A DNA stretch of 64,000 bases from Patescibacteria group bacterium (lineage in GTDB: Bacteria; Patescibacteriota; Microgenomatia; UBA1400; PJMF01), in contig JAZQJV010000018.1 in the NCBI GenBank assembly GCA_045541795.1, positions 118,236-182,235 on the forward strand, given 5' to 3'. Made by a program: the position numbers and the translations under genes. Below are positions 57-52,145 of this stretch, one piece after another. How positions within the stretch are numbered: the stretch's first letter is position 1; each line of letters opens with the position of its first letter. The notes below the pieces were generated by a model. That model searched no databases. It was not told the origin of the DNA and worked only from the letters and a program-made list of their open reading frames with translations.

Positions 57-62
57 CAGAGT

Positions 63-5590: not shown

Positions 5591-5608
5591 GGTGGCTTTC
5601 AATCAAAA

Positions 5609-6736: not shown

Positions 6737-6815
6737 AGTGGCTATTACTTATAGCACAATAACGCTATTTTGTCAATACTGATAATTAATTATTATTGGC
6801 ATTTATTTTCAATTC

Positions 6816-6903
6816 TTGCAAAAACAACTTCATACTGTTATAATCAGTTTCAAATAATTGGGTGCGGATTTCCCGCCAGAAACCACCCCAAAAAGATGGG
6901 ATT
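6816..6903 (+). promoter_or_regulatory. promoter-plus-leader repeat, copy 2 (TTGCAA 6816-6821, 17-nt spacer, TGtTATAAT 6836-6844; core 6859-6887)
   Basis: Consensus-like promoter followed by the conserved core tgggtGcggatttcccgccagaaaccacc. Possible helix GGGTG 6860-6864 / CACCC 6884-6888 and inner hairpin GCGG-atttc-CCGC. It precedes the zinc-ribbon/TM2 gene. Confidence 0.6.
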
Positions 6904-6922
6904 ACTGCGATGAAAGTGAAAC

Positions 6923-8429: not shown

Positions 8430-8438
8430 AAAGTAAAA

Positions 8439-15724: not shown

Positions 15725-15817
15725 ATTTGCTATTATATCATACCAAGTATTCTTCACGCTTAGCAATTAGCGCTCGCTTCAAACTACCCAAGATAGTCGC
15801 TTTCGCCCGGTTGGGTC

Positions 15818-34472: not shown

Positions 34473-35684
34473 ATGAACGGGAAAATAGTGCCGGTGTTTT
34501 TGGCGGCAGTTTTACTTCTCCCCTTATGGAGGGGAGATAGGCATACCACAGGTACAGCCAGAGGGGAGGTGCAAGCAGCCAGTAGTGCCACCACCAAAAA
34601 ACTCAAAGACGTGGCGCTTGGTGAGGTTATCCAAATTGGTGTTACTAAGTACGTCAAGATCGCTGCCAATAGCTATCAGGCGGTAAAGCCGTATACCTGT
34701 GCTGACCCAGTACTCACTTATGCCGGTGCTAGCAAAAGTTTCACTTATACGGGGAACTATCAGACATTTACGGCATATGCTGGGTGCCAGTACCAGGTGG
34801 AGCTGTGGGGTGCACAGGGCAATGACAACGGTTCAGTACTTGGCGGCAGAGGCAGTTACACTGCCGGATTATTTACGCCAGACGGCACAAGCTCACTTTA
34901 CGTTTATGTCGGCCAACATCAACAGTCAGTGCTAGCAGCTTCCTTTAATTGCGGTTCTACCGGCCCCTTAAATCACGGCGGCGATGCTGTTGGCTACGGG
35001 GGCGGCGGTGCTACAGATATTCGCACCGTAAGCGGAACTTGGGATAATGAAAACTCACTGCGTTCCCGGATCATTGTCGCCGCCGGCGGTGGTGGCAGTA
35101 AAATCTGGGGCGGTTGTAATTCAGTCGGATCTCAAGAAGGGATTTTTGCTGGCGGTATTAGCGGCTATACTGGTCCAGGCTCTGGTTACGCACCCAATGC
35201 TTGCGTCGCCGGGACTGGCGGTACTCAAGTGGCTGGTGGCAGTGCCTCTACGTGTACTGGTAATGGTGGCACCAGAGCGAGTGCGGGCAGCTTTGGTAAA
35301 GGCGGCAATCCTGGCAGTACATATAGCGCCGGTGGTGGCGGCGGCTGGTATGGTGGGGGCGGCGGCACTGCTAGTCACTGTTATATTGCCTGCGGCGGTT
35401 CTGGTTCCTCTTACATCTCCGGCCACACTGGCTGCGTCGGCGTCACTTCACTAAGCGACACTACTCCCAAATCCGGCTGCACCACCGGTACGACTAATAA
35501 TGCCTGTTCGCTTAGCCCTACTGGTCTGAGCTTCACTGACACCGTGATGATTGACGGTGCTGGTTATTCCTGGACAAATGTAAAAGGATCACTTCAACAA
35601 ATGCCCAATCCTGCCGGCGGTTACTACGCGAGCGGCGTGGGTCATACCGGCAATGGTGCCGCCCGTATCACCCGCCTTAATTAA
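34473..35684 (+). CDS. secreted glycine-rich domain protein (Gly_rich family, ALK/LTK GRD-like)
   Basis: FTYTGNYQTFTAYAGCQYQVELWGAQG...GGRGSYTAG...LYVYVGQ...GYGGGGATDIRT...RIIVAAGGGGS...GGGGGWYGGGGG. It has an N-terminal hydrophobic signal or anchor. Confidence 0.7.
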   Translation: MNGKIVPVFLAAVLLLPLWRGDRHTTGTARGEVQAASSATTKKLKDVALGEVIQIGVTKYVKIAANSYQAVKPYTCADPVLTYAGASKSFTYTGNYQTFTAYAGCQYQVELWGAQGNDNGSVLGGRGSYTAGLFTPDGTSSLYVYVGQHQQSVLAASFNCGSTGPLNHGGDAVGYGGGGATDIRTVSGTWDNENSLRSRIIVAAGGGGSKIWGGCNSVGSQEGIFAGGISGYTGPGSGYAPNACVAGTGGTQVAGGSASTCTGNGGTRASAGSFGKGGNPGSTYSAGGGGGWYGGGGGTASHCYIACGGSGSSYISGHTGCVGVTSLSDTTPKSGCTTGTTNNACSLSPTGLSFTDTVMIDGAGYSWTNVKGSLQQMPNPAGGYYASGVGHTGNGAARITRLN

Positions 35685-35841: not shown

Positions 35842-37059
35842 ATGCTCAACAACCGCAAACTGATTTACTTCATCTTAGTACTCGCCATTGCCATCGTGAG
35901 CGCCGGCATCGGCGCCTGGTTCGGCTACGGCCAAAAAGTAAGCACCGGCACCAAACTGCTAACTGCCAATCATGTTGCTCCCGCAGACTCATCACTTGCC
36001 GAAAGTCAAGAATACGAATCGCTGCTGGCCGATATCGAGGCTGGTAACTTTGCACAAACCGAGGCAGCTCCAACGACACCGGCCTCAATTGCTCCTGTCA
36101 TGTCTGGCAGCGTCGAGCCGTCAGGCACAGTTCCCAAAACCGTCTCCATCCCCACGCTGGGAGAAGCCAACGCCATCAGCTACACGAGCAGGGATCTCGG
36201 TGGCGGCAACTGGGAGAGTCACTTTTACATCTATACGGTGGATTTTGGCGGCGATGTCTTTAACTTTTTGGATCTGTCGCTTCCCGTCCATGCTGCCGCT
36301 TACGTGGGCGCCGTGCCAGGATTTAGTGACCACACCATGGTTTTCAGCTCTTCAGATGACGCTGGTATGCCGATCATTTATGCTGTCGACCTGGCAGAAA
36401 ATCCGGATCAATACGTCACTTTCGCCAGCGTCGCCGATCAGAAGGCCTTTTGTCAGTTGGTGCCTAACTGCGATCTTGGTTCCTCGATTTTTGCGCTGCA
36501 AAAAGTAAACGGCCGGCTCGCTTTTAACACCGGCGTAGATTGCTACGCTAATTCCTGTCCTACTTATTATATCGATTTGTTTAAAGGCGGTCACCTGGAA
36601 AACGCTACCAGTCAACCAGCAAACGCACCATTAGCTTATCCCAATAGCCTTTCTGCCAGTGACGGTTTCAGCGTCCAGCGGGAGGGCGGCAGCTTATATT
36701 TAACCGATCCTTCTGGTAAATCAAGCGAAGTTCTAAGCGGTGTCATTAGTTACTTTTTCTGGCGCAATCACATTTTTTACCTGCTCAATAACGACCGCAC
36801 CAACGTCTACCGTTTTGATATCCGCTCTGGCAAGTCGGACTCAATCTATACAGTCACTGGCGGCCGCTTGCTTGGTCTGTCCACCATGGGTCAAAATAAA
36901 ATCTTGCTCACCTTCCAACCCGATGGCTCCAATCAGTGGCAGTCCCGGATCATTGATCATGATGGTCAAGCGGCGAGCTTCACCTATTACCAAGCTGGCG
37001 CAGCTGTACCCGTAGATTTCAGCGACACTCACAGTATTACGGTGCAGTACTTTGAGTAG
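35842..37059 (+). CDS. hypothetical membrane-anchored extracellular protein (possibly beta-propeller-like)
   Basis: 405-aa ORF with an N-terminal TM. A TTGCAA-17-TAAAAT promoter lies upstream. No firm motif. Confidence 0.6.
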   Translation: MLNNRKLIYFILVLAIAIVSAGIGAWFGYGQKVSTGTKLLTANHVAPADSSLAESQEYESLLADIEAGNFAQTEAAPTTPASIAPVMSGSVEPSGTVPKTVSIPTLGEANAISYTSRDLGGGNWESHFYIYTVDFGGDVFNFLDLSLPVHAAAYVGAVPGFSDHTMVFSSSDDAGMPIIYAVDLAENPDQYVTFASVADQKAFCQLVPNCDLGSSIFALQKVNGRLAFNTGVDCYANSCPTYYIDLFKGGHLENATSQPANAPLAYPNSLSASDGFSVQREGGSLYLTDPSGKSSEVLSGVISYFFWRNHIFYLLNNDRTNVYRFDIRSGKSDSIYTVTGGRLLGLSTMGQNKILLTFQPDGSNQWQSRIIDHDGQAASFTYYQAGAAVPVDFSDTHSITVQYFE

Positions 37060-40029: not shown

Positions 40030-40058
40030 ATTATATCACAAAAACTGCTTCTTGTCAA
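40030..40058 (-). promoter_or_regulatory. consensus promoter of nusA-infB
   Basis: On the minus strand: TTGACA (40058-40053), 17-nt spacer, TGaTATAAT (-10 at 40035-40030). Confidence 0.6.
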
Positions 40059-40079
40059 GGGCTAATTTTGGTGTATAAT
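40052..40079 (+). promoter_or_regulatory. promoter of the pilin-like/giant-protein operon; its -35 overlaps the nusA -35 on the other strand
   Basis: TTGTCA at 40052-40057, 16-nt spacer, TATAAT at 40074-40079. Confidence 0.5.
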
Positions 40080-40089
40080 TGGGGAACTT

Positions 40090-40563
40090 ATGAAAAAATG
40101 GAGTGTGATCGCAGTTTTAATTTTGAGCCTGTTTGCGGGACGGCCAGCACATGCTGCCCCTTACGAAAGTTGGAAGAGTTCCAAAATGTGCACAGGCGCT
40201 AAAGACACGCTTTCTGAAGACGTTGCCACTATCGCTGGTATCGTTTGCCTGATCGCCAATGCCTTAAATGCCGTCCTGACGCTGTTTTCCTTCGTCGGCT
40301 TCCTCATGTTTGTGTATGCCAGTTTTATGCTCATGATCTCTGGCGGTAATCCCAGCGGCTTTGAAACAGCGAAAAATACCTTTACTTACGCAATTTTTGG
40401 CTTCGTGCTGGCTTTATCATCATTTGTGATCATCAATCTTATTTCTTATTACACTGGCCTCAATAGCTTCTTTGTCATCAAATTCTTGCCCAATACTATT
40501 TCTGGCAGCGCCAGCAGTGGCGGTACAGGCGGTAGCGGTACGGGAGGTACAAGCGGGCCATAA
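40090..40563 (+). CDS. small TrbC/VirB2-like (CPR T4SS-pilin-type) membrane protein, paralog 2, with a Gly/Ser/Thr-rich tail
   Basis: Signal peptide MKKWSVIAVLILSLFAGRPAHA, then two TM helices flanking MISGGNPSGFETAKNTF, and the tail GSASSGGTGGSGTGGTSGP. Confidence 0.6.
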   Translation: MKKWSVIAVLILSLFAGRPAHAAPYESWKSSKMCTGAKDTLSEDVATIAGIVCLIANALNAVLTLFSFVGFLMFVYASFMLMISGGNPSGFETAKNTFTYAIFGFVLALSSFVIINLISYYTGLNSFFVIKFLPNTISGSASSGGTGGSGTGGTSGP

Positions 40564-40564: not shown

Positions 40565-43500
40565 ATGCGCATTGATAAATTCTTACCGGCAAAACGTTGG
40601 CAAACTGTTATCATTGGGGTCAGTTTGGTTTTTGGCTGCATGATGTCGCTGCAAAATTTGCACCTAGACCTAGTTTCTGACGTCTGGAGTGCGCAGTATC
40701 AGGATGTTTATAGTCAAGTGATGAGTATTTTCCAGTCACGAGGTGAGACCATCCCTACTAATGTCGCCGCCGACATCATCGAGCGTTCTGGCGGTGATCA
40801 AAATCAAGCTATAGCTACTCTGGAAAAGTATCTCAACGTCTACAAAGCTTTGCAAGCGCGTAATCCTGATGTCTCTTCTCTAGTCATCAGTTTGATCGCC
40901 AAACAGTACCCAGATAATTACTCACAGGCCAGCACAGCTTTGTCGCAGACGGTCTCGACAGCTAAGCAGATCCAGGACTACCAAAATATAAATACTATTG
41001 CGGCGCAAATTGTGGCCGCTTTAGGGATTAATAATAGTTTCACGCAGACACTCTCAGACGCTTATGACGTCGTCAATAATGCCAGTAATATGGGCCAGCA
41101 GATGAACGTCAACAATATCGCCGCTCAAATTTTGTCTGCGCTCGATCTTACCGGAGAACTATCCTCGGGTTTTGGCAGCCAGGCTGATTTGCAAAATACG
41201 CTTCAAAGCATGACTAGATCGTCCCTCTTGCAAAGTCAAGACGCTAAGGATGTCCTCGGTGCCTTAGACATTTTCACGCCGGGTAATTTCTCGTCTGATG
41301 CCGGCAGCGTGAGTAAAATTGCCAGTGATCTTTTAGGCGGAAAACTTTCAGACACGGTCAAAAGTGTGGTAGATAAAGAAATTGCCGAAAGTTTGGGCGC
41401 GCTTAATCTAGGTAGTTTGTCTGGTCTTAGCGAAGGTAAAGGGAATTTTTCTGGCATTCTTGAGCAGGTGACATCTAAAACTGCCGGTGAAGCTGGCAAA
41501 TACAAGGATGTCTACGAAACCGTCACCAAAGGTATGAGCACTCAGGACATCGTCAAAATGGGCACCGACAAAATCAAAGACAGTATCTTAGATAATTCTA
41601 CCCTCGACCAGGAAAAAGCCGCTCAGGAAACCAAAAAAGAACTTGACCAAGAGGCAAAAAAAGCCGTAGACGAGGAAAAAAAACTACAGGATGAAGGATT
41701 GATTGATCCGTCGAGCGTACCAAGCAGTAGCCCTTCGCCTTCTTCAACTCCCGATCCTTCAGCCAGTCCTTCACCATCACCTTCCGCAAGTCCTTCTCCT
41801 GGTGCCAGCCCGTCGCCAGGGGCGAGCCCGAGTCCCTCTCCGTCTGCTAGTCCGTCACCGAGCGCTTCGCCGTCGCCGTCAGCGTCACCGAAAGCAACTG
41901 AATACATCAGAAGTGGTGCACAGGGATCCTTTATCACCGCTATCATAGATAAACTCAGAATGAGCGGCACGGCCGAAAATATTAAGGAAGGTTTTGCTGC
42001 TAAAATGATCGCCAAGAATTTATCGCTGGAGGGATATGAAGCCTATCATATCAAAACTGTCAGCCGTTTGCAGCCCTATATGAATTTTTCTCATCGCCGT
42101 AACAATGTAGATTTTAGCCAAGCCAAAGTACCCCTCATGCGCAATAGTAACTACAAACCTGAACGGCTTAATTCTGCCGAAAATTATTACGGCTATAATG
42201 CCCGGGTAGGAGTGAATGACACTGATATCCTTACTGAGTCAGCCTGGGTCGCCAAAATGTCGCAGCCTGTCAAATGCAGCCTCAAAGCCGCCAATCTTGC
42301 CTATATCGTGCGCACTTGCGACATTCTTCATGAAGACACATGCGAAGGTCTATACCTGACCGCTGATGGCAGTGAAACCATCAAAGATACTAAGATCAAA
42401 GTCCATGATTTGGCTCTTGCGGTGACAGCCATTCTCATCACTGATGGCAGCCAACGTGACGAGTTAATCAATGCGGTGGCGCTCGCTTTGGCGACGGGCA
42501 AAGGCGATCTTAGCGGCATCATGGGACAAGTAACCAATATTATTAATAGTATTGGCGGTGAGAATTCAGATGTACTGTCGCGTTTGCTGGCTATGGCTTC
42601 AGATAAAGTCATGGAACCTATCTATGATAACCGGATTCCTTTTTGTGAGACACTTTATAATACTCCAGCCACAGCGGCTACGGATGAGACGGGCTTACTG
42701 CTAGAAATGGCCAAAGGCAACATCCAAGCGGAGGATATGGGCAAAATTTATCTGCGCTGGGCGATGGAAAAATTGGACTTTTACCTGGCACGTGAATACC
42801 GCACTGCATACCTAGTGCAAACTACAAGAATCTGCCCGGTACGTCGGCAATTTATCTGCTCTAAATCCTCACCCGTATATAAGTATGCACCAGCACCCAC
42901 AGGCACCTGCTTAGTACAACTCCCCTGTATACCTGGTATCACCCCAGATCAGGTGCGTGTATATCCATTCAAAATCCCAGATCTTTTCACCAATAAGAAT
43001 TTTTGCAAAACGTCTGATCTAGAATATCCTGGGCTCTTGAATGACGTCAAATGTGAGCCCTCTGAGCAATTCCAATATGCAGACATGATACAAGAATATC
43101 ACGATCCGGCACTTTTACAAAAAAATTTCCTCATGAATATGGAGCAGATCCGCGCTGAACGTGAAGAGTTTTTAGCAAAACGCAAAACTCGCGCCCAGCA
43201 CTCTGCCGAAGCCTGTACGGCCAATAGTGCTACCACTCTTGCCAAAATGCAAGAGGCCGACTTAACATGCACCGACAAAAATGTGCTTAGCGGTGATCTG
43301 ATTGACTGTGAAAACTGCAATGGCGAAGCCAGACGAGTCAAAGCGGCTCTAGTGAAAGTCATCAACGGTGCCATCAAACATGGCGAACTTTACAAAATCG
43401 AAAATCCCAACGGCAACTCGCCGGGTACTGATGATGTCAGCGGCGGGCTTAGTAGTTCCGCCATTACCACTTCTGCCGTGAATCCGCTCGAACCAGCTAT

Positions 43501-44137
43501 CACTGATGTCAACTATTTTAATGATTTCTGCTTATGTCGGGAAAAAATGTTCCTTTGGGTCCCGTGGTTTGCCTACGCTAAACTTGATTACTTTGTCGTC
43601 GAGCCGATCAGTGATGAGGTGGAAAGTATTGAGGAGCACATTGTCTCGCCGTTTTTCCGCACTAGTCAATACCAGCAATTCCTCAAAAATGACAGCCGTC
43701 AAAATCGTAAAATCCAAGTCACTGGCGCCAAGAGTAACCTGAGTGACATCCCGATTTGGCTGCCTGCTGGCGGGCCGATCAGTAATGTCTTTTTGCAGCA
43801 GCAAGTTTTATACAATCAAGATCAAGACATTTATAAGAACTTTAAAAAATGCGTTTCCGCCGCCTCATATTTTGAGTCACAGTGCATGGGTGCGGATAGC
43901 GGCAAAGAGGATGAGGCTTTTGACGAGGCTAAAAGTCAGTGCATATTGCGTGCGGAAGCTGGCTGTACTCGTGGCTGTGGCGAGAACGGAGTGATTTCGC
44001 TTACCTATGGTAGCGAGGACGGTAAGACTATTATTGACTGTGAATGCGGCAATACTGGCGGTGAAGACAGTAGCGGGCCAAGAAATTATCATTATGAATG
44101 TGAAAATTCCACCGATACTGAATGGGATGACGTCTAA
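40565..44137 (+). CDS. 1190-aa N-terminally anchored surface protein: degenerate helical repeats, coiled coil, Pro/Ser linker, large Cys-rich C-terminal region; function unknown
   Basis: The ATG at 40565 lies 1 nt after the pilin-like TAA (MRIDKFLPAKRWQTVIIGVSLVFGCMM). The track ORF extends upstream in the same frame across the pilin 3' end. Confidence 0.75.
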   Translation: MRIDKFLPAKRWQTVIIGVSLVFGCMMSLQNLHLDLVSDVWSAQYQDVYSQVMSIFQSRGETIPTNVAADIIERSGGDQNQAIATLEKYLNVYKALQARNPDVSSLVISLIAKQYPDNYSQASTALSQTVSTAKQIQDYQNINTIAAQIVAALGINNSFTQTLSDAYDVVNNASNMGQQMNVNNIAAQILSALDLTGELSSGFGSQADLQNTLQSMTRSSLLQSQDAKDVLGALDIFTPGNFSSDAGSVSKIASDLLGGKLSDTVKSVVDKEIAESLGALNLGSLSGLSEGKGNFSGILEQVTSKTAGEAGKYKDVYETVTKGMSTQDIVKMGTDKIKDSILDNSTLDQEKAAQETKKELDQEAKKAVDEEKKLQDEGLIDPSSVPSSSPSPSSTPDPSASPSPSPSASPSPGASPSPGASPSPSPSASPSPSASPSPSASPKATEYIRSGAQGSFITAIIDKLRMSGTAENIKEGFAAKMIAKNLSLEGYEAYHIKTVSRLQPYMNFSHRRNNVDFSQAKVPLMRNSNYKPERLNSAENYYGYNARVGVNDTDILTESAWVAKMSQPVKCSLKAANLAYIVRTCDILHEDTCEGLYLTADGSETIKDTKIKVHDLALAVTAILITDGSQRDELINAVALALATGKGDLSGIMGQVTNIINSIGGENSDVLSRLLAMASDKVMEPIYDNRIPFCETLYNTPATAATDETGLLLEMAKGNIQAEDMGKIYLRWAMEKLDFYLAREYRTAYLVQTTRICPVRRQFICSKSSPVYKYAPAPTGTCLVQLPCIPGITPDQVRVYPFKIPDLFTNKNFCKTSDLEYPGLLNDVKCEPSEQFQYADMIQEYHDPALLQKNFLMNMEQIRAEREEFLAKRKTRAQHSAEACTANSATTLAKMQEADLTCTDKNVLSGDLIDCENCNGEARRVKAALVKVINGAIKHGELYKIENPNGNSPGTDDVSGGLSSSAITTSAVNPLEPAITDVNYFNDFCLCREKMFLWVPWFAYAKLDYFVVEPISDEVESIEEHIVSPFFRTSQYQQFLKNDSRQNRKIQVTGAKSNLSDIPIWLPAGGPISNVFLQQQVLYNQDQDIYKNFKKCVSAASYFESQCMGADSGKEDEAFDEAKSQCILRAEAGCTRGCGENGVISLTYGSEDGKTIIDCECGNTGGEDSSGPRNYHYECENSTDTEWDDV
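41708..41890 (+). repeat. low-complexity (A/G)SPSPS coding repeat (Pro/Ser linker)
   Basis: It encodes PSSVPSSSPSPSSTPDPSASPSPSPSASPSPGASPSPGASPSPSPSASPSPSASPSPSASP. Confidence 0.8.
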
Positions 44138-45725
44138 ATGGCGCCAACTTCAATCTTGGCGCTGCTGGCTGCCATACCTGGTTTTGGCACTAGCGATGGC
44201 GATCGCCATCGCCCTCAAAAAGGATTATTACATTGATGAAATTTACAGCTATGGTCTCGCCAATAGTCTGACGCCGCAAATAGATATTAGCAATCCTGGT
44301 ATTTTCCGGCCGGCTTGGTCAGTGTTTCGCCCGTACGTGACCGCTTCCTGGTGGCACGTGCTTGATTTACCTTCTGTGTGGCAAAATCAGGCCGCTGATG
44401 TCCATCCTCCATTTTACTATTTGTTGCTGCATGTGGTTTCCTCACTTGCGCCAGGTATTTTCTCGCGTGGCTTTGCGGGCTTGATTAATATCATTTCTGC
44501 TCTAGTGTGCCTTTATTTTGTGGGGAGTATCTTGCGTCGTCTGGAAGTCAGCCCAGCTGCTCGGCATTGGATCAGCCTGTGTCTCTCGCTCCATCCAGCC
44601 ATCATTGGCGCTGGTAGCTTTTTGCGGATGTACTTGTTGCTGTCAGCACTCCTTTTGGCCATTACTGATCAAACGCTTGCCCTCATCCAAAATCCTGTGT
44701 CAATCAAATCCTGGTATCGCACTCCGCTTACGTGGCTTGTCACCGCCGCTTGCCTTACCCATTACTATGCATACGTCTATCTGATTGGACTTGTCGGTGC
44801 CGCTCTCATTTTGTTTTGGCGGCGTGGTCAAAAACAAGCCTGTCGCCATTTGTTGGCTTGTGCCGTTGCTGGCGTCGCCAGCGCCTTAATACTATTCCCG
44901 TATGCGCTGCGCCATGTATTTTTTGCTGACCGCGGGACTCAGTCATGGAGCAACTTTTTGCAGCTGTCTGCCTTTCGCGCGCGTTTAGATCTTTATACGA
45001 ATTTGCTCAATAGACAGCTTTTTGGCGGTTTTGGCTGGTTGCTTATTGGTATGATCGGTATTGCTTTGGCGGTTTATCTTTGGCAAGGAAGACGCCGGCT
45101 CCAAGCGAGTGTAAATAAACTTGGTCTTTGGCTGGTGGTGACGGCGCCAGCGTGTGCTTACCTGATTCTTGTTGGTATTTCTTCAGTCTTTACTGTGGAC
45201 CGGTACATGCAGCCGCTGTATTTCCCCGTTATCACCATTGTGTACGGCAGTTTGGCACTACTAATTTGGCGCCATGCGCCTTCTCGTTGGCGATCAGGAC
45301 TATTAATAGCAGTACTCAGCGTGTGTACTGTTTTTTCTTGGCGCGTACAAGAATGGCCCTATCTTTATTGGGAGAGAGAGCAAGAAATTGCCAGAGCACG
45401 CGCTCACGAGGGCTTAGATTGCCTCTTCCTGTATCAAGATCGTTGGACCGCTCTTTACTATTTTGAGGAATTGCGTCATTACCGTTCTGTCACCTTTATC
45501 CCTGTAGAGGCCAATGACCGCATCCGTTATTATATGGAAGTCATCAAGCACGCCCATATAGATGAATTAGTAGTCGCTTTTGGTTTGGGTGATGACGATC
45601 CTCGTGAACCAGAAGCAGTTCTTAATAAATTCCTTGATATATCGGGATTTTTAGAGTACAAGCAAACAATTTGGCAGCATAGCCCCAAATCAGCAAGTTA
45701 TCTAGTGGGCAGTAAAGTCGACTGA
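44127..45725 (+). CDS. GT-C fold membrane glycosyltransferase (ArnT/PMT, GT39/83-like)
   Basis: A DE-containing first loop (KKDYYIDEIYSYGLANS) and more than 10 TM segments. The ATG at 44127 overlaps the end of the preceding gene. Confidence 0.6.
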   Translation: MTSKWRQLQSWRCWLPYLVLALAMAIAIALKKDYYIDEIYSYGLANSLTPQIDISNPGIFRPAWSVFRPYVTASWWHVLDLPSVWQNQAADVHPPFYYLLLHVVSSLAPGIFSRGFAGLINIISALVCLYFVGSILRRLEVSPAARHWISLCLSLHPAIIGAGSFLRMYLLLSALLLAITDQTLALIQNPVSIKSWYRTPLTWLVTAACLTHYYAYVYLIGLVGAALILFWRRGQKQACRHLLACAVAGVASALILFPYALRHVFFADRGTQSWSNFLQLSAFRARLDLYTNLLNRQLFGGFGWLLIGMIGIALAVYLWQGRRRLQASVNKLGLWLVVTAPACAYLILVGISSVFTVDRYMQPLYFPVITIVYGSLALLIWRHAPSRWRSGLLIAVLSVCTVFSWRVQEWPYLYWEREQEIARARAHEGLDCLFLYQDRWTALYYFEELRHYRSVTFIPVEANDRIRYYMEVIKHAHIDELVVAFGLGDDDPREPEAVLNKFLDISGFLEYKQTIWQHSPKSASYLVGSKVD

Positions 45726-47348
45726 TTATTTTAGCCGCCACACTTGTAGTGTTGGCGCATCTGCCTGTGGTCGCTCATACTCCTGTACCAATGCGACGGG
45801 CTTGATGTCCTCATCCAAATCCAGCCGGTGCGAATTAGCGACCAGTAAGACCTCGTCATATTCATCCCAGTTTGGCTGGGGAGAAAGTTTATCAAAATTG
45901 TGTATCGGCGGCGCACCCAAACCTAGGACTTTGATGTTGTCACGCACACTACTTTTCCATAAATATATCTGCAAACCGTCGGGTAATGTCCCCACAAAAC
46001 CTTCAGTAAGAACCAACAGCTTCTTACTCGCCGCCAACTCTTGTAAATATTCGGCCGTTTGCTTGATCCCATGTCCGGAAGACCAGTCCCAAAATAATTG
46101 CTGTCTGTCGGCTGGCAGTAGCGGCAGTTTAAATGGATTGGTATGAATCCGCCAGCTCCAATAATGGCCAGTAACTAATACAATTAAAATTAACGCGAGT
46201 TTAAAATTTATCAATTCAATCCGACGAATCAGGGATAAGCACACCACAAAGCTGACGATAATAAACGGTACCACCGGTAGAAAATAACGCGGGTAGACGA
46301 CTTTACCCAGCATGATGATAGGCAAAGCATAGGCGAATCCTGAGATTAAAATCAAAAGCGGTAACGCTGTCCGTGAACGCCGGCGACAAACATAAATCAA
46401 AGCCATACACAAAGTAGTGACAGTCATCGTGAGTCCAGTATAATTTGTAATTACGCGGGCAAAGTTGAGCACATTGTAAGTTAAAATCGCAAACGGTTGA
46501 CGCAAAAAGTCACCCACGCTATATAAAAAGTCACCACCGCGACTAAATAGCATCGGGAATGCGGGGCTGATTTTTAAGACAGCAAAAATTATCACTCCGA
46601 TCGCACTAATGACAAAAAGTGGCATTAACTGCGAGGCAAGCGAGCGCCAAAAACTTTCTCGGTTTTGTTTGTTTTTTATCTTTGACCACTGCGCGTGGTA
46701 AAACGGCACAGTGGCTAAAACTGGCGCCAACAAAAGACAGGAAAACTTTGTCCACATCGCCAGTCCCCACGAGGTGCCAGCAGCCAGCGTCCACCAGTAC
46801 CAACTGTTTTTGTCCTTGTCTCGGCTCAAATATGCGCCAGTCGCTTGATAAGTAAGGATGAACGTGAGACTGATGAAAAAAGACACGGCGCTGTCCATCA
46901 GTGCCAAACGATTAGTCAGCATTAATCCAGGCGAGAAAATTACCAGCAACCCTGCTAAAAGTTGATAACGCCTTTTATGGACGAAAACTTTGACCATATA
47001 AATCGTCACGAGCAATTGACCCAGACCAAAAAGAATCGCCGCCACCCGTCCTGCCACCAGCGGATCGGCAAAAATTTTGATCAAAGGTATCGCCGTCCAA
47101 ATGACCAGCGGCGTTTTACCATCATTGAGAGCAAAAAAACTATACTGCTGCCAATCAGAAATAGCCAGCTGCGACCAATAAATATAAATTGCTTCATCCA
47201 CAAAAACAGGGATGGATTGCAGTTTGGCCAGCCGCTGCCAACAAAAGATTACAATGATTATTCCTAAAAGATAATAGTACCAATACCGAGCTAAATGAAT
47301 GCTAGCCTTGAGCGTTTTTTTCAATTTTGTATACCAATCCCACCACAT
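45726..47348 (-). CDS. GT-C fold membrane glycosyltransferase (ArnT/PMT, GT39/83-like)
   Basis: First loop PVFVDEAIYIYWSQ; polytopic. On the minus strand TATAAT lies 7 nt before the ATG. Its stop codon abuts the stop of the convergent gene. Confidence 0.6.
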   Translation of the reverse strand: MWWDWYTKLKKTLKASIHLARYWYYYLLGIIIVIFCWQRLAKLQSIPVFVDEAIYIYWSQLAISDWQQYSFFALNDGKTPLVIWTAIPLIKIFADPLVAGRVAAILFGLGQLLVTIYMVKVFVHKRRYQLLAGLLVIFSPGLMLTNRLALMDSAVSFFISLTFILTYQATGAYLSRDKDKNSWYWWTLAAGTSWGLAMWTKFSCLLLAPVLATVPFYHAQWSKIKNKQNRESFWRSLASQLMPLFVISAIGVIIFAVLKISPAFPMLFSRGGDFLYSVGDFLRQPFAILTYNVLNFARVITNYTGLTMTVTTLCMALIYVCRRRSRTALPLLILISGFAYALPIIMLGKVVYPRYFLPVVPFIIVSFVVCLSLIRRIELINFKLALILIVLVTGHYWSWRIHTNPFKLPLLPADRQQLFWDWSSGHGIKQTAEYLQELAASKKLLVLTEGFVGTLPDGLQIYLWKSSVRDNIKVLGLGAPPIHNFDKLSPQPNWDEYDEVLLVANSHRLDLDEDIKPVALVQEYERPQADAPTLQVWRLK

Positions 47349-47419: not shown

Positions 47420-48238
47420 ATGTCAAAAAACGCCAAAAAATTACTTGTTATTGCAGTTTCGTTGTTTGTTTTGGCAGCTGTCTTTTACTGGACGAAAACC
47501 CAGCAGCCTGCTCCAGATCGCCTTTCACGACAAACTGCTATCACTCCGCAAACCCGCTATTTATCTACACTTGAAAGTCTCGATACATTTGTGGTCCGCC
47601 ACACAGCAATTTTTACCTCTCCCGACGAAACTTCTGACGGCACACCGTTTACCATTACCGAAACTGTCCGCCATGAATACTCACTCTCACCCAATCTGCG
47701 CGTCGAGACGAGCTTGCCCGCTTCTGTCAGTGCTAGTTTGAGCAGTAATCCTCAAGTGCAATCGCGCGTCGCCCAAATCTCCCAAGCTTACACTGACCAA
47801 GAGAATTTTCCACTTTATATCGTCACTGATCATCAAGCACAAACCATCACTTACTACGAAAACTTTGGCGGTGACTGGACGTATTCCACTAAACCCCTTT
47901 ATCAAGTGGACCGTCAGCATTTTTACGGCGGACTGTGGGAGACCAACCAGACGCCAAAGTTAATCAGTGATGGCGTCTTACAGGCTCGCGATAGTGCCGA
48001 CACTGGTACTTACAACTTTTATTTCAATGATCAAGATCAGCTCACAATGGTGGAATTCATTGAAGACGGCGACATGATGAGTGAAGAGTATCAGATTTTA
48101 GACGAACTTCCTATAGTCACGATCCCAGCCACAGTAATGGAAAGCGCTGTAGAATTCCAGCCGGAAATAATTTTTGAGGACACTAGTGAGTATTTGCCTA
48201 CAGTCGGTGAGAGTGTCTATGTTCCTGACATGGAGTAG
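47420..48238 (+). CDS. hypothetical membrane-anchored protein
   Basis: 272-aa ORF with an N-terminal TM. TAAAAT lies 6 nt before the ATG. Confidence 0.55.
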   Translation: MSKNAKKLLVIAVSLFVLAAVFYWTKTQQPAPDRLSRQTAITPQTRYLSTLESLDTFVVRHTAIFTSPDETSDGTPFTITETVRHEYSLSPNLRVETSLPASVSASLSSNPQVQSRVAQISQAYTDQENFPLYIVTDHQAQTITYYENFGGDWTYSTKPLYQVDRQHFYGGLWETNQTPKLISDGVLQARDSADTGTYNFYFNDQDQLTMVEFIEDGDMMSEEYQILDELPIVTIPATVMESAVEFQPEIIFEDTSEYLPTVGESVYVPDME

Positions 48239-48253: not shown

Positions 48254-50089
48254 TTATATCCACCGTTGCAGGTGTCCCACTATTGCGCTGGCGAGCTCGC
48301 TATCGAGTAATCCTCTCCGGGCAAAATCCAGACAGTATTCTCGCACTAAGTGATACTGCGATAGCTTGTAATAGCGATCCAGAAGTAAGCGTGCAAACTG
48401 CCAGCTCCAGCGTCTATCACGCATGAGTAATGTCCACTCATCTTCTTCATTCCAAGTCAAAAGTTGACTCTCACCGCTCGCTTCCCGATTATAACTAAAT
48501 GTCATGTTGACTCCTTCATTAATCCGCAGCGTCTCTTCATGATAAGTGGCTACCTCACCATGAGTATTGTAAGCAAAAAGACTAAAAGTCGCTCCCGGAT
48601 CGCCGCTCGAGAGTGCGAGTCGATATTTTTCATCCCTGGGCTTAGGTAGTAGATACTGATACCCCACCTGCTTGCCGGTGTCTTGATCATAAAAAGGTGC
48701 TTTGATACCACCAACTTCCACGCCGTTTGTATTATAGACACCGATTTCACTCTCGCCGATTACATTTACGATTAAGTAACTTTGGTCAGTAAATGATGGC
48801 ACAAAACGCCTTCGGGAAATAATTTTGCCAGCATATGTCTTTAAGCTTCGCTTGCCATAATAAGGATCATTGATTTGCGCCTCCAAATTATTTATCGCGA
48901 CACCGCTGCCTACTACAAAGTGCCCCGTTACTTCCTGGATGAATGGCTCATATTTGAGCAGTCCTATAGGCGCGCTTGCATAGAGAAAGTCACTTTTTTC
49001 AAAACGGTATTCAAATTTGGGGAAAGACATGTCCCAAGCTTGATAATAGTCATGTAGCCAATTTGACAGTCTCATGATTGCTGCCATATTGAGATAAGTT
49101 TTATTGACGTAACCATCTTTTTGCCCCTTAAGCCATTCATTTAAGTGTGGCACATCTAGTTGCTGACTATTAGGAAATTGCAAGTAACCGTACGAGTTGA
49201 GCAGCATTACGACACTGGTAAGTAAGCACCCATGACTGCCGATGGTGAGCGTATCTGAGTGACCCAACTTAATGTCGCGCCAGCGTTCATCTGTTTGGAA
49301 TAATTGAGGCACGTTTAAATTGAGCTGGTAATTATCTGGAGTGTAGGCTACCCAGTGTAAATTAAAGCTTGATGTATCGGGATGCGTCAGCATACTGCTG
49401 TCAATCAAAAAACTTGGGTGCGCAAGTGTTGGCTCTAAGTGCACCGTCTTTGACTCAATCACCTGACCGTGAGCGTAATACTCGCGGTGCGCCTCATCCG
49501 TAGGGTACATTTTAATCAGTCTGTTATCTGCAAACTCCTGGATCGTGACGATGAAATGTTCTCCTTCAGGCACGGCATACACAGTTAAGCGTTCATGACT
49601 GCTGACGGTTTCGAGTCCTTCGGCATCACGATTACCAGTCAGACAATAAAAAGCGGTATCCCGCCTGTCTTCGCCCAAATCTAGCCGACAACGCAAAAAA
49701 TCTACACTCCCGTCCTCATGAGTGCGCCAGTCGACCTCCCAGCGGTCGCCAAGCTGATAATCCGTCACAGAAAACTCAAACGTGAGCGCATACTCCACTG
49801 GCAAACCGATCGACTGACCATCGTAACCATGTATCTGCGATCGCGCCAAATCATTTTCACCAGGCCTTAGATGCAGTGTCCCGGTAGCCAAGGGATTGCG
49901 AGTTTTATCGGGCGGCTCTACCCAGACATCTCCAGTCTTACTCCAGTTAGTGTCACTTGCAAAAAAATCCAGCAAAAAAGCTCGTGGTGATTCCTGCGCT
50001 CCTGCGGACTGACTCGTGATCAGCAGCCAGACAAGTGCCGCCCACATTACTACTATATTTTGTATCATTTGTTTTAATTTGTTTTGCAT
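48254..50089 (-). CDS. secreted protein with a probable peptidase C39-like (papain-fold) domain
   Basis: QTDERWRDIKLGHSDTLTIGSHGCLLTSVVMLLNSYGY resembles the Cys region of C39-like domains. The signal peptide begins at MQNKLKQMIQNIVVMWAALVWLL. The start could instead be 50128. Confidence 0.5.
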   Translation of the reverse strand: MQNKLKQMIQNIVVMWAALVWLLITSQSAGAQESPRAFLLDFFASDTNWSKTGDVWVEPPDKTRNPLATGTLHLRPGENDLARSQIHGYDGQSIGLPVEYALTFEFSVTDYQLGDRWEVDWRTHEDGSVDFLRCRLDLGEDRRDTAFYCLTGNRDAEGLETVSSHERLTVYAVPEGEHFIVTIQEFADNRLIKMYPTDEAHREYYAHGQVIESKTVHLEPTLAHPSFLIDSSMLTHPDTSSFNLHWVAYTPDNYQLNLNVPQLFQTDERWRDIKLGHSDTLTIGSHGCLLTSVVMLLNSYGYLQFPNSQQLDVPHLNEWLKGQKDGYVNKTYLNMAAIMRLSNWLHDYYQAWDMSFPKFEYRFEKSDFLYASAPIGLLKYEPFIQEVTGHFVVGSGVAINNLEAQINDPYYGKRSLKTYAGKIISRRRFVPSFTDQSYLIVNVIGESEIGVYNTNGVEVGGIKAPFYDQDTGKQVGYQYLLPKPRDEKYRLALSSGDPGATFSLFAYNTHGEVATYHEETLRINEGVNMTFSYNREASGESQLLTWNEEDEWTLLMRDRRWSWQFARLLLDRYYKLSQYHLVREYCLDFARRGLLDSELASAIVGHLQRWI

Positions 50090-50280
50090 ATTGGCAAATA
50101 TACACACAATTCTTTCAAATTCTTTCATCTTTTTACCGCAAAATATGCGGTAATAACCAATTTACCTGCGTTCACCAGCAATATTCATCAGTCAAAATCT
50201 ATCATAATTTGCTACCACCACCTGCAAAAAATACCAATATAACAGCACATTTTTCTCTTATAATGACTAAAAGTGACGGC

Positions 50281-50314
50281 GGGAAAAATTTCGACCTTAG
50301 TCGAAATTTTTCCC
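50281..50314. promoter_or_regulatory. perfect 15-bp inverted repeat (operator or stable hairpin) in a divergent intergenic region
   Basis: gggaaaaatttcgac-ctta-gtcgaaatttttccc, verified base by base. A TATAAT lies at 50259-50264 upstream. Confidence 0.5.
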
Positions 50315-50370
50315 CAAACCCCTCACTAAATTGCCCCGCCAACTTCAAGAATTTGTGCTATAATAACCTC

Positions 50371-50781
50371 ATGATTACAAAATTCATTCGCAATTATATA
50401 ATTATTGTCCTGGCTTTATTTGTCACTGACTGGCTGATGAATAACATCTCTTTCGGCTATCCCACCGGCAAAAATTTTTCATTTGCTGTTTTTTGGGACG
50501 GCTTGCCCGTGCTTTTGGTCACCGCACTCGTGCTCACATTACTTTCATTGATCGCCAAGCCTATTCTCAAAATTCTTTCTGCGCCCATTAATTTTGTCAC
50601 TCTCGGCCTATTTAATGTCGTTATTGATGTCCTGATTTTTTGGCTGACGGCATATTTGGTGTCTGGCTTTAGCATTGGTGAGCTCTCACTCGGGCAGATT
50701 CACCTCGGCGCCTTCTTTTCGTATGCCGCAGTTTCTCTCGTTTTTGGCTTTTTACAGGGGCTTTTGGCTTTGATTTTGTGA
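50371..50781 (+). CDS. YvlD/Phage_holin_4_2 family membrane protein
   Basis: LIAKPILKILSAPINFVTLGLFNVVIDVLIFWLTAYLVSGFSI fits the family pattern. TGcTATAAT lies 6 nt before the ATG at 50371. The track ORF start at 50035 runs through intergenic signals. Confidence 0.65.
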   Translation: MITKFIRNYIIIVLALFVTDWLMNNISFGYPTGKNFSFAVFWDGLPVLLVTALVLTLLSLIAKPILKILSAPINFVTLGLFNVVIDVLIFWLTAYLVSGFSIGELSLGQIHLGAFFSYAAVSLVFGFLQGLLALIL

Positions 50782-50846: not shown

Positions 50847-52145
50847 ATGGCAATACTTACAGCACAAAATAATAGCGTTACAATTAGTAGCTTGATTGCA
50901 AGGGAAATTCTTGACTCGCGTGGCATTCCCACCATCGAATGCTCCCTTACCCTCTCGAACGGAGTGATGGTCGTCACCAGCGTCTCTACTGCCAATCTGA
51001 CCGGCAATGTGGGCTATCATGAACTTCGTGATCATGATCCCAATCGCATGCTCGGCATGGGCGTCACCAAAGCTGTAGACATCATCAATACTCAAATTGC
51101 CGGACGGCTAATCGGCAAAAATCCTATTGACCAAGAAAGCATTGATGCTCTGCTCATTAGTCTTGATTCCTCCAAAAGTCTCGAAAACATCGGCGCTAAT
51201 ACAACTATGGTCGTTTCTCAAGCAGTGCTCAAAGCTGCGGCTTTATCCTACGGCTGGCCGCCATACTATTATATTTTCAAACGTTACGCTCTTTCGAGCG
51301 TGCTGGCTGTGCCTACCTGTATTTACGGCCTGATTGATGGCGGAAAACACGGCACTGATAATCTTGATTTCCAAGAATTTCAAGTCATCCCCGCCAATCA
51401 TCTCAATTTCCAGCGTTCACTGGAAATTGCTGTTTCTCTTTTTAAAGCACTAGGCGATCTGCTCAAATCCAAAGGTGCCATCCGCTCAGTCGGGCCAAAT
51501 GGCGGTTATACGCCAAATTTGTACAAAAACACTGATGCCTTCGATTTGATGTCTGAAGCCGCCCGTCAAATCAGTCTCATTATCGGCCGTGATATTTTCT
51601 TTGGTGCGGATTTCAACGCCGATAGCTTTTATTCTGCTGGCCGCTACAAGATCAAAGACAAAACCGAAGCCTTTAGCGCGAAACAATGGATGGATTATCT
51701 CAAAGATCTCAATAAACTTTACGCTCTGTACTCATTCGAGGATCCATTTGCCAGTGCAGATTTGGGCTCTTGGCGTGAATTTACCAATGAATTTGACAAA
51801 GCCGCACGCATTGTCTCGGATTCCATGACTCGCACTGATGCCAAGCTGACTGCGGGCGCCATCAAAGAGCGTATCGGCAACACTCTTATCGTCAAGACGG
51901 GTCAAGTGCCCACGATCACTGATCTGATCGAGGCCGTCAAAACCGCTCGTCAGGCCAACTGGCAGATCGTCGTCTCTAATCGCGAAGGTGAAACTATGGA
52001 TGACTTTATCGCTGATTTGGGCGTAGGTTTGGGTGCAGAATTTGTCAAATTTGGCCCGCCTAATCGTGGTGAGCGCATTATCAAGTACAACCGCTTGCTC
52101 CAGATCAATAACGAATTGCAGATGATCAATCAGGCAAGTAAATAG
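50847..52145 (+). CDS. eno: enolase
   Basis: IAREILDSRGIPTIE at the N-terminus, with length and C-terminal pattern consistent with enolase. Confidence 0.9.
   Translation: MAILTAQNNSVTISSLIAREILDSRGIPTIECSLTLSNGVMVVTSVSTANLTGNVGYHELRDHDPNRMLGMGVTKAVDIINTQIAGRLIGKNPIDQESIDALLISLDSSKSLENIGANTTMVVSQAVLKAAALSYGWPPYYYIFKRYALSSVLAVPTCIYGLIDGGKHGTDNLDFQEFQVIPANHLNFQRSLEIAVSLFKALGDLLKSKGAIRSVGPNGGYTPNLYKNTDAFDLMSEAARQISLIIGRDIFFGADFNADSFYSAGRYKIKDKTEAFSAKQWMDYLKDLNKLYALYSFEDPFASADLGSWREFTNEFDKAARIVSDSMTRTDAKLTAGAIKERIGNTLIVKTGQVPTITDLIEAVKTARQANWQIVVSNREGETMDDFIADLGVGLGAEFVKFGPPNRGERIIKYNRLLQINNELQMINQASK

What the first reader, a model, noticed from the sequence alone, without database searches (positions are those of the whole stretch)
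40565..44137. 1190-aa Cys-rich surface protein translationally coupled to a pilin-like gene
The ATG at 40565 lies 1 nt after the pilin-like TAA. The architecture reads as follows:
- an N-terminal TM anchor
- five or more degenerate helical repeats (..NIAAQI(V/L)(A/S)AL.., ..DVLGALD.., ..IASDLLGG.., ..IAESLGALNLG..)
- a Lys/Glu coiled coil
- a 61-residue Pro/Ser linker
- a ~720-aa C-terminal region with many cysteines (for example CENCNGEARRVKA and CTRGCGENG...DCECGN) and an acidic tail
I recognise no known domain. Its position after a VirB2-like pilin, and before two GT-C glycosyltransferases, suggests a glycosylated adhesin, tip or host-interaction protein.
Basis: inference. Interest (0 to 1): 0.6.

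Follow-up and report, generated by a model that had tools for sequence, protein, structure and literature searches.

The report
Pilin-partnered cysteine-rich secreted giant protein
A 1190-residue secreted protein of a previously undescribed family is always encoded right after a type-IV-secretion-like pilin gene in a small group of uncultivated bacteria, and its relatives carry cell-wall-cutting enzymes, so it probably acts at the cell envelope or at a contact with another cell.

Summary
ATG 40565 lies 1 nt after the TAA of a 157-aa PF18895 (T4SS_pilin) gene and opens a 1190-aa ORF. Its parts are an N-terminal hydrophobic segment, about six helical repeats, a Lys/Glu helix, a 61-residue Pro/Ser linker and a 746-aa C-terminal region with 24 Cys.

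No Pfam, NCBIfam, PHROGs or PDB match exists. The structure models are low-confidence and found no fold match.

An exhaustive search of 1.84 billion proteins found 13 strong related clusters, and a later profile search added two more. All 12 relatives whose locus could be read have a pilin homologue immediately upstream. Wherever the contig reaches, divergent nusA(-infB) lies beyond it. In the 8 intergenic regions examined, the two divergent promoters share one palindromic -35.

The conserved unit is a ~650-aa Cys-rich core. In eight relatives it is fused to peptidoglycan-active domains (SLT, 3D, SpoIID, M23). The window protein has none and carries helical repeats and a spacer instead.

Best reading: an extracytoplasmic partner of a VirB2-like pilin that targets the cell envelope, here in a non-enzymatic, adhesin-like form. 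The glycosylation link is weak, because the adjacent membrane-protein/PMT pair recurs only in the closest relative. Function is inferred, not shown.

The parts
40030..40079 (.). Bidirectional promoter. The minus-strand site is TTGACA-17-TATAAT (12/12) towards nusA-infB. The plus-strand site is TTGTCA-16-TATAAT (11/12) towards the pilin gene. The two -35 hexamers overlap in the palindrome CTTGTCAAG.
   Evidence: Promoter scan. The same pair was found in all 8 related loci examined that hold this intergenic region. CTTGTCAAG and ATTATA are invariant in the alignment of six of these regions. Only 10 nt separate the -10 hexamer from the pilin ATG in the window.
40090..40563 (+). VirB2-like pilin gene (157 aa): signal peptide, short Cys-containing segment, two hydrophobic helices, Gly/Ser/Thr tail.
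   Evidence: PF18895 T4SS_pilin E=1e-5, 26.0 bits against cut-off 26.6. NF045849 pilin-like conjugal transfer protein E=0.002. 7/7 orthologues hit PF18895. Alignment and hydropathy.
40565..44137 (+). The 1190-aa protein of the finding, stop codon included.
   Evidence: ORF list and direct reading. Full-length homologue P0001, 56% identity over 96% of the query.
40565..40666 (+). N-terminal basic stretch plus hydrophobic segment (residues 1-34): a Sec signal, either cleaved or acting as an anchor.
   Evidence: Kyte-Doolittle hydropathy above 1.5 only for windows starting at residues 14-16. Read by eye, homologues end this segment in AKA-A, TQA-A or SEA-Q type cleavage sites.
40697..41539 (+). 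Helical-repeat region (residues ~45-325): about six units of ~40 aa with motifs such as NIAAQI(V/L)(A/S)AL.
41561..41692 (+). Lys/Glu-rich single long helix (residues 333-376).
   Evidence: Model helix H333-374. 35% K+E. 16 residues shorter in P0001.
41708..41890 (+). 61-residue Pro/Ser linker (residues 382-442).
   Evidence: Composition and sequence. Replaced by an acidic stretch in P0001. Read by eye, replaced by hundreds of residues of LGDL-type or other repeats in P0026, P0027, L005 and L006.
41987..43939 (+). Family-defining Cys-rich core (residues ~475-1125), with a clade-specific helical insert at ~625-685.
   Evidence: 13 cluster representatives at E<1e-30 in 1.84 billion proteins. Alignments A2 and A3 show 21 invariant columns, including C788, D795, R798, N810, N812, C814, C830, Y845, D847, R873, C915, C918 and C989 in protein numbering. 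No Pfam, PDB or fold match.
43940..44134 (+). Cys-rich acidic C-terminal tail (residues 1126-1190; six Cys from C1126 to C1179).
   Evidence: Conserved only in P0001 and P0025. In other family members this position holds SLT, 3D, SpoIID or other domains.
44127..45725 (+). Polytopic membrane protein (532 aa). Its start overlaps the end of the big gene by 11 nt. Possibly GT-C-like, not confirmed.
   Evidence: Start inferred from the L001 orthologue. About 9-10 hydrophobic segments, with DYYIDEIYSYG after the first. No Pfam, NCBIfam or PDB hit. Homologue only in L001.
45726..47348 (-). PMT-family (GT-C) protein mannosyltransferase homologue, convergent with and abutting the previous gene.
   Evidence: PF02366 PMT E=3.5e-14, 53.4 bits against cut-off 22.7. 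Orthologue only in L001.

Best explanation
The gene encodes an exported, disulfide-stabilised protein that works together with the VirB2-like pilin encoded just upstream. The two form a two-gene operon that is fixed in one uncultivated bacterial lineage, probably related to Patescibacteria.

The functional unit is a ~650-residue Cys-rich core of a family not in the domain libraries searched. I propose that the core docks at the cell envelope, either on peptidoglycan, on the surface of another cell, or on the pilin assembly itself.

In most relatives the core delivers a peptidoglycan-active domain (lytic transglycosylase, 3D, SpoIID or M23) to that site. In the window's branch the enzyme is absent. 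The core instead hangs on a helical-repeat module and a flexible Pro/Ser spacer, so this version would act as a non-catalytic binding or spacing element, adhesin-like, at the same site.

What is shown:
- gene structure
- export signal
- family membership
- strict pairing with the pilin gene
- the domain fusions in relatives

What is inferred:
- binding to the envelope or to the pilin
- any role in contact with a host
- O-glycosylation of the linker by the neighbouring PMT
For: - **Pairing.** A pilin homologue (phmmer E 1e-24 to 1e-61) lies immediately upstream on the same strand in L001-L013, which is 12 distinct relatives. Core identity falls as low as 26%.
- **Shared transcription signal.** The plus-strand promoter in front of the pilin gene is conserved in 8/8 intergenic regions examined. 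Gene spacing is 1 nt in the window, and the two genes overlap in L002.
- **Extracytoplasmic location.** There is an N-terminal Sec-type signal in the query. Read by eye, homologues have cleavable signal peptides. All 24 Cys of the region lie in the exported part, about 11 of them conserved family-wide.
- **Fusions of the core.**
  - SLT or SLT_3 in P0028, P0029, P0033 and P0034
  - 3D in P0030
  - SpoIID in P0032
  - Peptidase_M23 in P0035 and P0036
  - also esterases, a C39-like peptidase and an EEP domain
- **Invariant polar residues beyond Cys.** D795, R798, N810, N812, Y845, D847, R873 and N934 suggest a conserved binding or active site.
- **Published context.** VirB2-like PF18895 pilins are widespread in Patescibacteria. 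A pilin array is essential for epibiotic growth of Southlakia epibionticum (PMC12102498; PMC10633639; PMC12857230).
Against: - No experiment and no structural match supports any binding activity.
- The core model is poor (mean pLDDT 56), so the negative fold searches are weak.
- All loci come from one clade in which the wider neighbourhood (infB-nusA, and a ~270-aa gene downstream) is also syntenic. Adjacency could therefore partly reflect shared ancestry.
- None of the ORFs scanned carries a VirB4, VirD4 or VirB6 domain; that covers nearly all ORFs of at least 150 aa in the 64-kb window, including every one over 500 aa. The pilin gene is thus not in a recognisable secretion cluster here.
- The window protein itself has no lytic domain, so what relatives do may not transfer to it.
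- The pilin's Pfam score is 0.6 bits below the gathering cut-off.
Confidence: 0.45

Rival explanations
1. It is the lineage's counterpart of VirB1, PrgK or TraG: a factor that remodels the cell's own wall so that the pilin structure can pass through the peptidoglycan. The core would be a scaffold or regulator of the lytic domain. The window protein would then be a non-catalytic variant, comparable to the secreted VirB1* fragment or to inactive LytM-type activators.
For: - Relatives carry SLT, M23, 3D or SpoIID domains.
- The SLT motif AESGLNP...GLFQI is intact in P0028, P0033 and P0034 (read by eye).
- virB1 lies next to virB2 in the Agrobacterium virB operon (established knowledge).
- Monoderm VirB1 homologues are large multidomain hydrolases, and in Patescibacteria most VirB2-bearing genomes lack a recognisable VirB1 (PMC12102498).
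Against: - The window protein and five relatives (P0001, P0025/L005, P0026, P0027, L006) have no hydrolase domain at all.
- The accessory enzymes are very varied and include esterases, an EEP domain and a C39-like peptidase, which is unusual for a housekeeping wall-remodelling factor.
- The core has no similarity to any VirB1 family member.
Confidence: 0.2
2. It belongs to a polymorphic effector family. A conserved trafficking core carries interchangeable enzymatic 'warheads' that attack the wall of a host or competitor cell. The pilin-like protein would serve in export or delivery. The window protein would carry an unrecognised small Cys-rich C-terminal module, or be a disarmed copy.
For: - The architecture is a conserved core plus variable C-terminal (sometimes N-terminal) enzymatic domains: SLT, 3D, SpoIID, M23, esterases, C39-like and EEP.
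- The protein diverges fast relative to housekeeping neighbours: core 26-67% identity against NusA 62-85%.
- The T4SS of Saccharibacteria is proposed to export proteins to the host (PMC10633639).
Against: - Only one copy is seen at each locus, at a fixed chromosomal position and under a conserved promoter next to nusA. That is unlike mobile, multi-copy toxin cassettes.
- No candidate immunity gene is conserved downstream.
- The proteins have ordinary Sec signals, so they need no specialised secretion.
- No relatives were found on plasmids or viral contigs.
Confidence: 0.15
3. The adjacency to the pilin gene has no functional meaning. The protein is a lineage-specific, possibly glycosylated, cell-envelope structural protein that happens to sit in a syntenic block.
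For: - All loci are from one clade with broad synteny.
- Pro/Ser-rich linkers are common in secreted proteins of this clade, for example in the L004 pilin and in P0029.
- A PMT homologue and a second polytopic membrane protein follow the gene in the window and in L001.
Against: - Genes downstream of the pair change between loci, while the pilin-core pair never separates. The pair stays on one strand with gaps from -1 to ~50 nt.
- An extra ORF inserted in L011 lies upstream of the pilin gene, not between the two genes.
- Fusion to lytic enzymes is not expected for a purely structural protein.
Confidence: 0.1

Closest known systems
VirB1 / PrgK / TraG(pIP501) / TcpG-type peptidoglycan hydrolases of type IV secretion systems
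   Same: - Exported proteins encoded beside the T4SS pilin or channel genes (virB1 precedes virB2 in Agrobacterium).
- Monoderm versions are large and multidomain, with SLT plus a peptidase.
- Relatives of the window protein carry SLT, SLT_3 or M23 domains.
   Different: - The window protein has no hydrolase domain.
- The conserved core is unrelated to any VirB1-type family.
- The gene follows the pilin gene rather than preceding it.
- No VirB4 cluster lies nearby.
VirB5 / TraC / CagL-type minor pilins and pilus-tip adhesins
   Same: An extracytoplasmic protein co-encoded with a VirB2-type pilin.
   Different: From established knowledge, VirB5 proteins are ~220-aa helical bundles. This protein is 1190 aa, with a 650-aa Cys-rich mixed alpha/beta core. 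No sequence or fold similarity was found.
VirB2-like pilin arrays of Patescibacteria (PF18895; e.g. Southlakia epibionticum SEML1_0006-0019)
   Same: The same pilin family, probably in a related group of uncultivated bacteria. The published arrays are essential for epibiotic growth (PMC10633639, PMC12102498).
   Different: Here there is a single pilin gene, not an array. It is not next to virB4. It is invariably followed by a giant Cys-rich protein and is driven by a promoter shared with nusA. This pairing is not mentioned in the three papers I read.
Polymorphic toxin and effector families (conserved trafficking region plus variable enzymatic C-terminus)
   Same: Across the family one conserved core carries different enzymatic domains at its ends.
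   Different: The family is single-copy at a fixed chromosomal position, Sec-dependent, and has no conserved immunity-like neighbour. The window member has no recognisable enzymatic end.
PMT-dependent O-mannosylated secreted proteins of Actinobacteria
   Same: A Ser/Pro-rich linker in an exported protein, with a PMT-family gene 1.6 kb downstream.
   Different: The PMT neighbour is conserved only in L001. The linker itself is not conserved in P0001. Glycosylation is untested.

Membership tests
T4SS_pilin (PF18895, VirB2-like), for the upstream gene 40090-40563 | Match to the family profile | tested here: met
   E=1e-5 and 26.0 bits against a gathering cut-off of 26.6, so marginally below it. 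All 7 orthologues match, best E=2.4e-8. Precomputed PF18895 hits are on record for the orthologues in 8 loci (L001-L004, L011-L013).
T4SS_pilin (PF18895, VirB2-like), for the upstream gene 40090-40563 | Signal peptide followed by a hairpin of two hydrophobic helices | tested here: met
   Hydrophobic segments at residues ~4-23, ~40-87 and ~97-123. Conserved in the alignment of 7 orthologues.
T4SS_pilin (PF18895, VirB2-like), for the upstream gene 40090-40563 | Encoded with the T4SS machinery (VirB4, VirB6, VirB3) | tested here: not met
   No T4SS family was found among the ORFs scanned, which covers nearly all ORFs of at least 150 aa in the 64-kb window and every one over 500 aa. The rest of the genome could not be examined.
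VirB1/PrgK-type T4SS peptidoglycan hydrolases, for the 1190-aa protein | Lytic transglycosylase (SLT) and/or CHAP/M23 catalytic domain | tested here: not met
   No Pfam or NCBIfam family of this kind matches the window protein. Such domains are present in relatives P0028, P0029, P0033, P0034 (SLT) and P0035, P0036 (M23).
VirB5-type pilus-tip adhesins, for the 1190-aa protein | Sequence or fold similarity to VirB5/TraC | tested here: not met
VirB5-type pilus-tip adhesins, for the 1190-aa protein | Location at the tip of a VirB2 filament | not testable with these tools
   Needs immuno-EM, cryo-ET, or at least multimer structure prediction.
GT-C glycosyltransferases, for the two downstream genes | Profile match to a GT-C family | tested here: inconclusive
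   45726-47348(-): PMT PF02366 E=3.5e-14, met. 44127-45725(+): no Pfam, NCBIfam or PDB hit, and no similarity to the PMT neighbour. It shows only a polytopic topology and a D-E motif after the first helix.
Polymorphic toxins/effectors, for the 1190-aa protein | Conserved N-terminal region with variable C-terminal toxin domain, followed by a cognate immunity gene | tested here: inconclusive
   Variable enzymatic ends are seen across the family. No conserved downstream small gene was found. The window member has no recognised toxin domain.

The most novel reading that the evidence does not exclude
The pilin gene and the Cys-rich core protein form a self-contained, constitutively expressed surface organelle of a previously unstudied bacterial lineage. 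A VirB2-type filament or membrane platform would carry a modular head. Depending on the species, that head is an adhesin-like spacer (as in this window) or a set of wall-cutting enzymes. The organelle would be used to attach to and breach the envelope of a host bacterium. The core would then be a new fold that couples cargo to a T4SS-type pilin without a neighbouring secretion ATPase cluster.
Probability: 0.2. Interest if true: 0.75.

Novelty: new variant of a known kind. Interest (0 to 1): 0.55.

Why it matters
VirB2-like pilins are a puzzling and, in the one tested case, essential feature of Patescibacteria. Monoderm T4SSs normally have no pilus, and nobody knows what these pilins do or what they bind (PMC10633639, PMC12102498, PMC12857230).

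This finding gives a pilin of that family a fixed, co-transcribed protein partner. The partner's relatives carry four different kinds of peptidoglycan-active domains. That yields a concrete, testable link between these pilins and cell-wall attack or remodelling.

It also defines a new ~650-residue Cys-rich domain family for structural study. On the cautious side, the family is tiny (about 16 clusters), confined to one uncultivated clade, and nothing about its activity has been shown.

Tried and rejected
**Searches that found nothing**
- Pfam, NCBIfam and PHROGs on the whole protein and on its halves.
- Pfam on all 16 core sequences, looking for weak shared hits: none.
- PDB sequence searches with single sequences and with profiles: nothing for the core, and only E>=0.1 noise for the N-terminus.
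- JGI metagenome contigs, IMG/VR viral contigs and PLSDB plasmids: no relatives.

**Structure**
- AlphaFold2 of the core (16-sequence alignment) gave mean pLDDT 56.
- AlphaFold2 of the N-terminus (4 sequences) gave mean pLDDT 57.
- Foldseek against BFVD gave nothing below E=0.35.
- The AFDB library was not available.

**Limits of the word-indexed search**
- With the single sequence it found only P0001 plus low-complexity Pro/Ser hits.
- With the profile it found only 5 members.

**Source contig**
- It could not be retrieved by exact protein look-up, although an identical LepA is on record.

**Ideas rejected**
- A split or frameshifted gene in L005: the break is a masked run of N.
- A lipoprotein signal at Cys25: the Cys is absent in P0001.
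- Paralogues of the pilin or the core elsewhere in the window: none.
- Homology between the two downstream membrane proteins: none.
- A conserved functional third gene: the ~270-aa gene downstream in 5 loci has no apparent signal peptide (read by eye) and is absent from the window, so I treat it as plain synteny.

**Left open**
- A relation between the N-terminal repeats and the C-terminal repeats of P0038/P0039 is only suggestive (hhalign probability 53%).


Full report
**1. The observation**

A 157-aa ORF (40090-40563) ends in TAA at 40561-40563, and one base later ATG 40565 opens a 1190-aa ORF ending at 44137. The mechanical ORF begins further upstream at a TTG. The best homologue aligns from the ATG-40565 start, which supports that start.

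The described anatomy is present:
- One hydrophobic segment near residues 14-34.
- About six helical units of ~40 aa between residues ~62 and 312.
- One long Lys/Glu-rich helix at 333-374.
- A Pro/Ser run of exactly 61 residues, 382-442.
- A 746-aa C-terminal region with 24 cysteines and an acidic end.

The hydrophobic core of the N-terminal segment is only ~14 residues. Most homologues, read by eye, end theirs in signal-peptidase-type sites (AKA-A, TQA-A, SEA-Q). 'Signal peptide' is therefore at least as likely as 'TM anchor'.

**2. The neighbours**

- *Upstream gene.* It matches Pfam T4SS_pilin PF18895 at E=1e-5, 0.6 bits under the gathering cut-off. Seven of seven orthologues match the same family, best E=2.4e-8. 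It has the expected layout of a signal peptide plus two hydrophobic helices.
- *First downstream gene.* A polytopic membrane protein most likely starts at ATG 44127, overlapping the big gene's end by 11 nt. It has no profile hit, so 'GT-C' is unconfirmed for it.
- *Second downstream gene.* The convergent gene 45726-47348 is a PMT-family homologue.
- *Upstream, divergent.* nusA and a short infB.
- *Wider window.* The rest holds housekeeping and glycan genes. No VirB4, VirD4 or VirB6 domain was found in the ORFs scanned, which cover nearly all ORFs of at least 150 aa and every one over 500 aa.

**3. Relatives**

The word-indexed search of 5.8 billion proteins found one true homologue, P0001 (56% identity). 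Everything else was Pro/Ser low-complexity noise.

An exhaustive HMMER search of 1.84 billion cluster representatives with the C-terminal region found 14 proteins, 13 of them at E<1e-30. A profile search added two more.

The shared unit spans residues ~475-1125 of the window protein. It has 21 invariant columns, including seven Cys and several Asp, Arg, Asn and Tyr. Its motifs include VPLLRN..Y...RLNSAETYYGY, YRTAYIVQ..RICPV, PDQVRIYPFK.PDLFTNKNFC and PGAGPITNIFIVQQSLY.

No relatives were found in JGI metagenome contigs, IMG/VR or plasmids. Five were found among GTDB species genomes.

The window's LepA is 100% identical to an NCBI protein on a 288,690-bp contig. About twenty close LepA clusters are unnamed or named only 'bacterium'. 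The nearest named relatives are the Microgenomates group (65%) and the Patescibacteria group (64%). The lineage is therefore probably Patescibacteria-related, but that is an inference. One locus (L006) is titled as a goat-jejunum MAG.

**4. Conserved context**

A pilin homologue lies directly upstream on the same strand in every locus that could be read, 12 distinct relatives in all:
- L001-L004
- L005-L009
- L010-L013

The phmmer E-values for these pilins run from 1e-24 to 1e-61. nusA, usually with infB, lies divergent upstream wherever the contig reaches.

Identity to the window falls as follows:

| Protein | Identity to the window |
|---|---|
| NusA | 62-85% |
| Pilin | 43-72% |
| Core | 26-67% |

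The pair is therefore old within the clade, and the big protein evolves fast.

The intergenic region carries two divergent sigma-70-type promoters whose -35 hexamers overlap in the palindrome CTTGTCAAG. The pair scores 12/12 and 10-11/12 in all eight loci examined. The palindrome is invariant in the alignment of six of those regions.

Genes downstream of the pair are not conserved. The membrane-protein/PMT pair recurs only in L001. L003 has an epimerase, a PTPS_related membrane protein and a flippase. Other loci have unrelated genes.

**5. Domain fusions**

The family has two layouts.

*Layout A: no recognisable enzyme domain.*
- The window protein, P0001, P0026, P0027, L005 and L006 have a signal, then the helical-repeat module, then a spacer, then the core.
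- The spacer ranges from 61 Pro/Ser residues to hundreds of residues of LGDL-type or other repeats.

*Layout B: the core follows the signal directly, or follows an N-terminal enzymatic domain, and enzymes are attached.*
- SLT or SLT_3 in P0028, P0029, P0033 and P0034
- 3D in P0030
- SpoIID in P0032
- Peptidase_M23 in P0035 and P0036
- also alpha/beta-hydrolase esterases, a C39-like peptidase and an EEP domain

In P0035 an esterase is inserted inside the core. P0038 and P0039 carry helical repeats at the C-terminus. These may be related to the window's N-terminal repeats, but hhalign probability is only 53%.

**6. Structure**

AlphaFold2 gave mean pLDDT 56 for the core (16 sequences) and 57 for the N-terminus (4 sequences). 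Only residues 45-190 of the N-terminus were confident.

- BFVD gave nothing.

With such models the absence of a match is weak evidence. Combined with the empty sequence and profile searches, the core is best called a family absent from every library searched.

**7. Interpretation**

*Shown:*
- It is a real, exported, Cys-rich protein.
- It belongs to a small family absent from Pfam, NCBIfam, PHROGs and the PDB.
- The family is invariably paired with, and probably co-transcribed with, a VirB2-like pilin gene at a fixed chromosomal site.
- Relatives of the same core carry peptidoglycan-active domains.

*Inferred:* the core is an envelope-targeting or pilin-docking module. The window's version, lacking an enzyme and mounted on repeats plus a flexible linker, would be a binding or spacing variant. 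I put this at 0.45.

*Rivals:*
- A VirB1-like remodelling factor for the cell's own wall (0.2).
- A polymorphic wall-attacking effector family (0.15).
- A structural envelope protein whose adjacency to the pilin is mere synteny (0.1).

The glycosylation idea rests only on a PMT gene that is conserved in one close relative.

**8. Comparison with what is known**

Published work describes PF18895 pilins as widespread in Patescibacteria. They often occur in arrays near virB4, and they are essential in Southlakia epibionticum. No partner protein or function is known (PMC12102498, PMC10633639, PMC12857230).

A single pilin gene hard-wired to a giant Cys-rich protein beside nusA is not mentioned in the three papers I read. 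The protein fails the membership tests for VirB1-type hydrolases and VirB5-type adhesins, although it may work like one or the other.

I rate it a new variant of a known kind (a pilin-associated envelope protein) built on a new domain family, with interest 0.55.

Noticed in passing
window 40030-40089; L001-L004, L006, L008, L009 intergenic regions: nusA-infB and the pilin operon are driven by divergent consensus-like promoters that share one palindromic -35 element (CTTGTCAAG). The pair is present in all 8 loci examined. In the window only 10 nt separate the -10 hexamer from the pilin ATG, so the pilin mRNA may be nearly leaderless.
   Followed up: partly
window 1-7000: A low-GC stretch (34-38% against ~47% elsewhere) looks like a defence island. 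It holds two YhcG/DUF1016 PDDEXK nucleases (1736-2824, 5609-6736), a Schlafen AlbA_2 protein (2846-4273) and a Shedu SduA homologue (4424-5602).
   Followed up: no
window 34473-35684 (+): A 403-aa exported protein gives a strong match to the ALK/LTK glycine-rich domain PF12810 (E=6.6e-34), a domain named after animal receptor kinases.
   Followed up: no
window 48254-50128 (-): A 624-aa exported protein gives a weak Peptidase_C39_2 match (E=5e-4, below cut-off). A C39_2 domain also occurs in family member P0034, but phmmer found no similarity between the two proteins.
   Followed up: partly
window 7356-9119: A secreted staphylococcal-type nuclease with an Excalibur domain (7356-8429) is followed by an Ltp-type surface lipoprotein (8439-9119), next to the defence island.
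   Followed up: no
window 14126-15766 (-), 35842-37059 (+), 47420-48238 (+): Three sizeable ORFs (546, 405 and 272 aa) have no significant Pfam hit. The 405-aa and 272-aa ORFs flank the pilin region and appear, by eye, to have N-terminal hydrophobic segments.
   Followed up: no
P0035 (residues ~860-1075); L005 7900-8000: In relative P0035 an esterase domain is inserted inside the Cys-rich core, splitting it in two. In L005 the gene looks split only because of a masked run of N.
   Followed up: yes
L002 6552-7382, L004 12873-13733, L007 4269-5102, L008 9313-10119, L009 13035-13862 (all minus strand): A ~270-aa protein with no apparent signal peptide (read by eye), and no Pfam hit on record for the four copies with a called gene, lies convergent just downstream of the big gene in five loci. 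It is absent from the window, where the membrane-protein/PMT pair sits instead.
   Followed up: partly
L004 9323-9952; P0039 N-terminus; L005 and L006 big proteins: Short Cys-rich modules (C.C and C..C patterns) and Pro-rich linkers recur in different positions of the pilins and big proteins of this clade. Examples are an insertion in the L004 pilin and the C-terminal tail of the window protein.
   Followed up: no
window 50035-50781 (+): A membrane protein matches Phage_holin_4_2 (PF04020, E=1.8e-15). It sits between the C39-like gene and a 432-aa ORF at 50847-52145 that reads by eye as enolase but was not scanned against any library.
   Followed up: no
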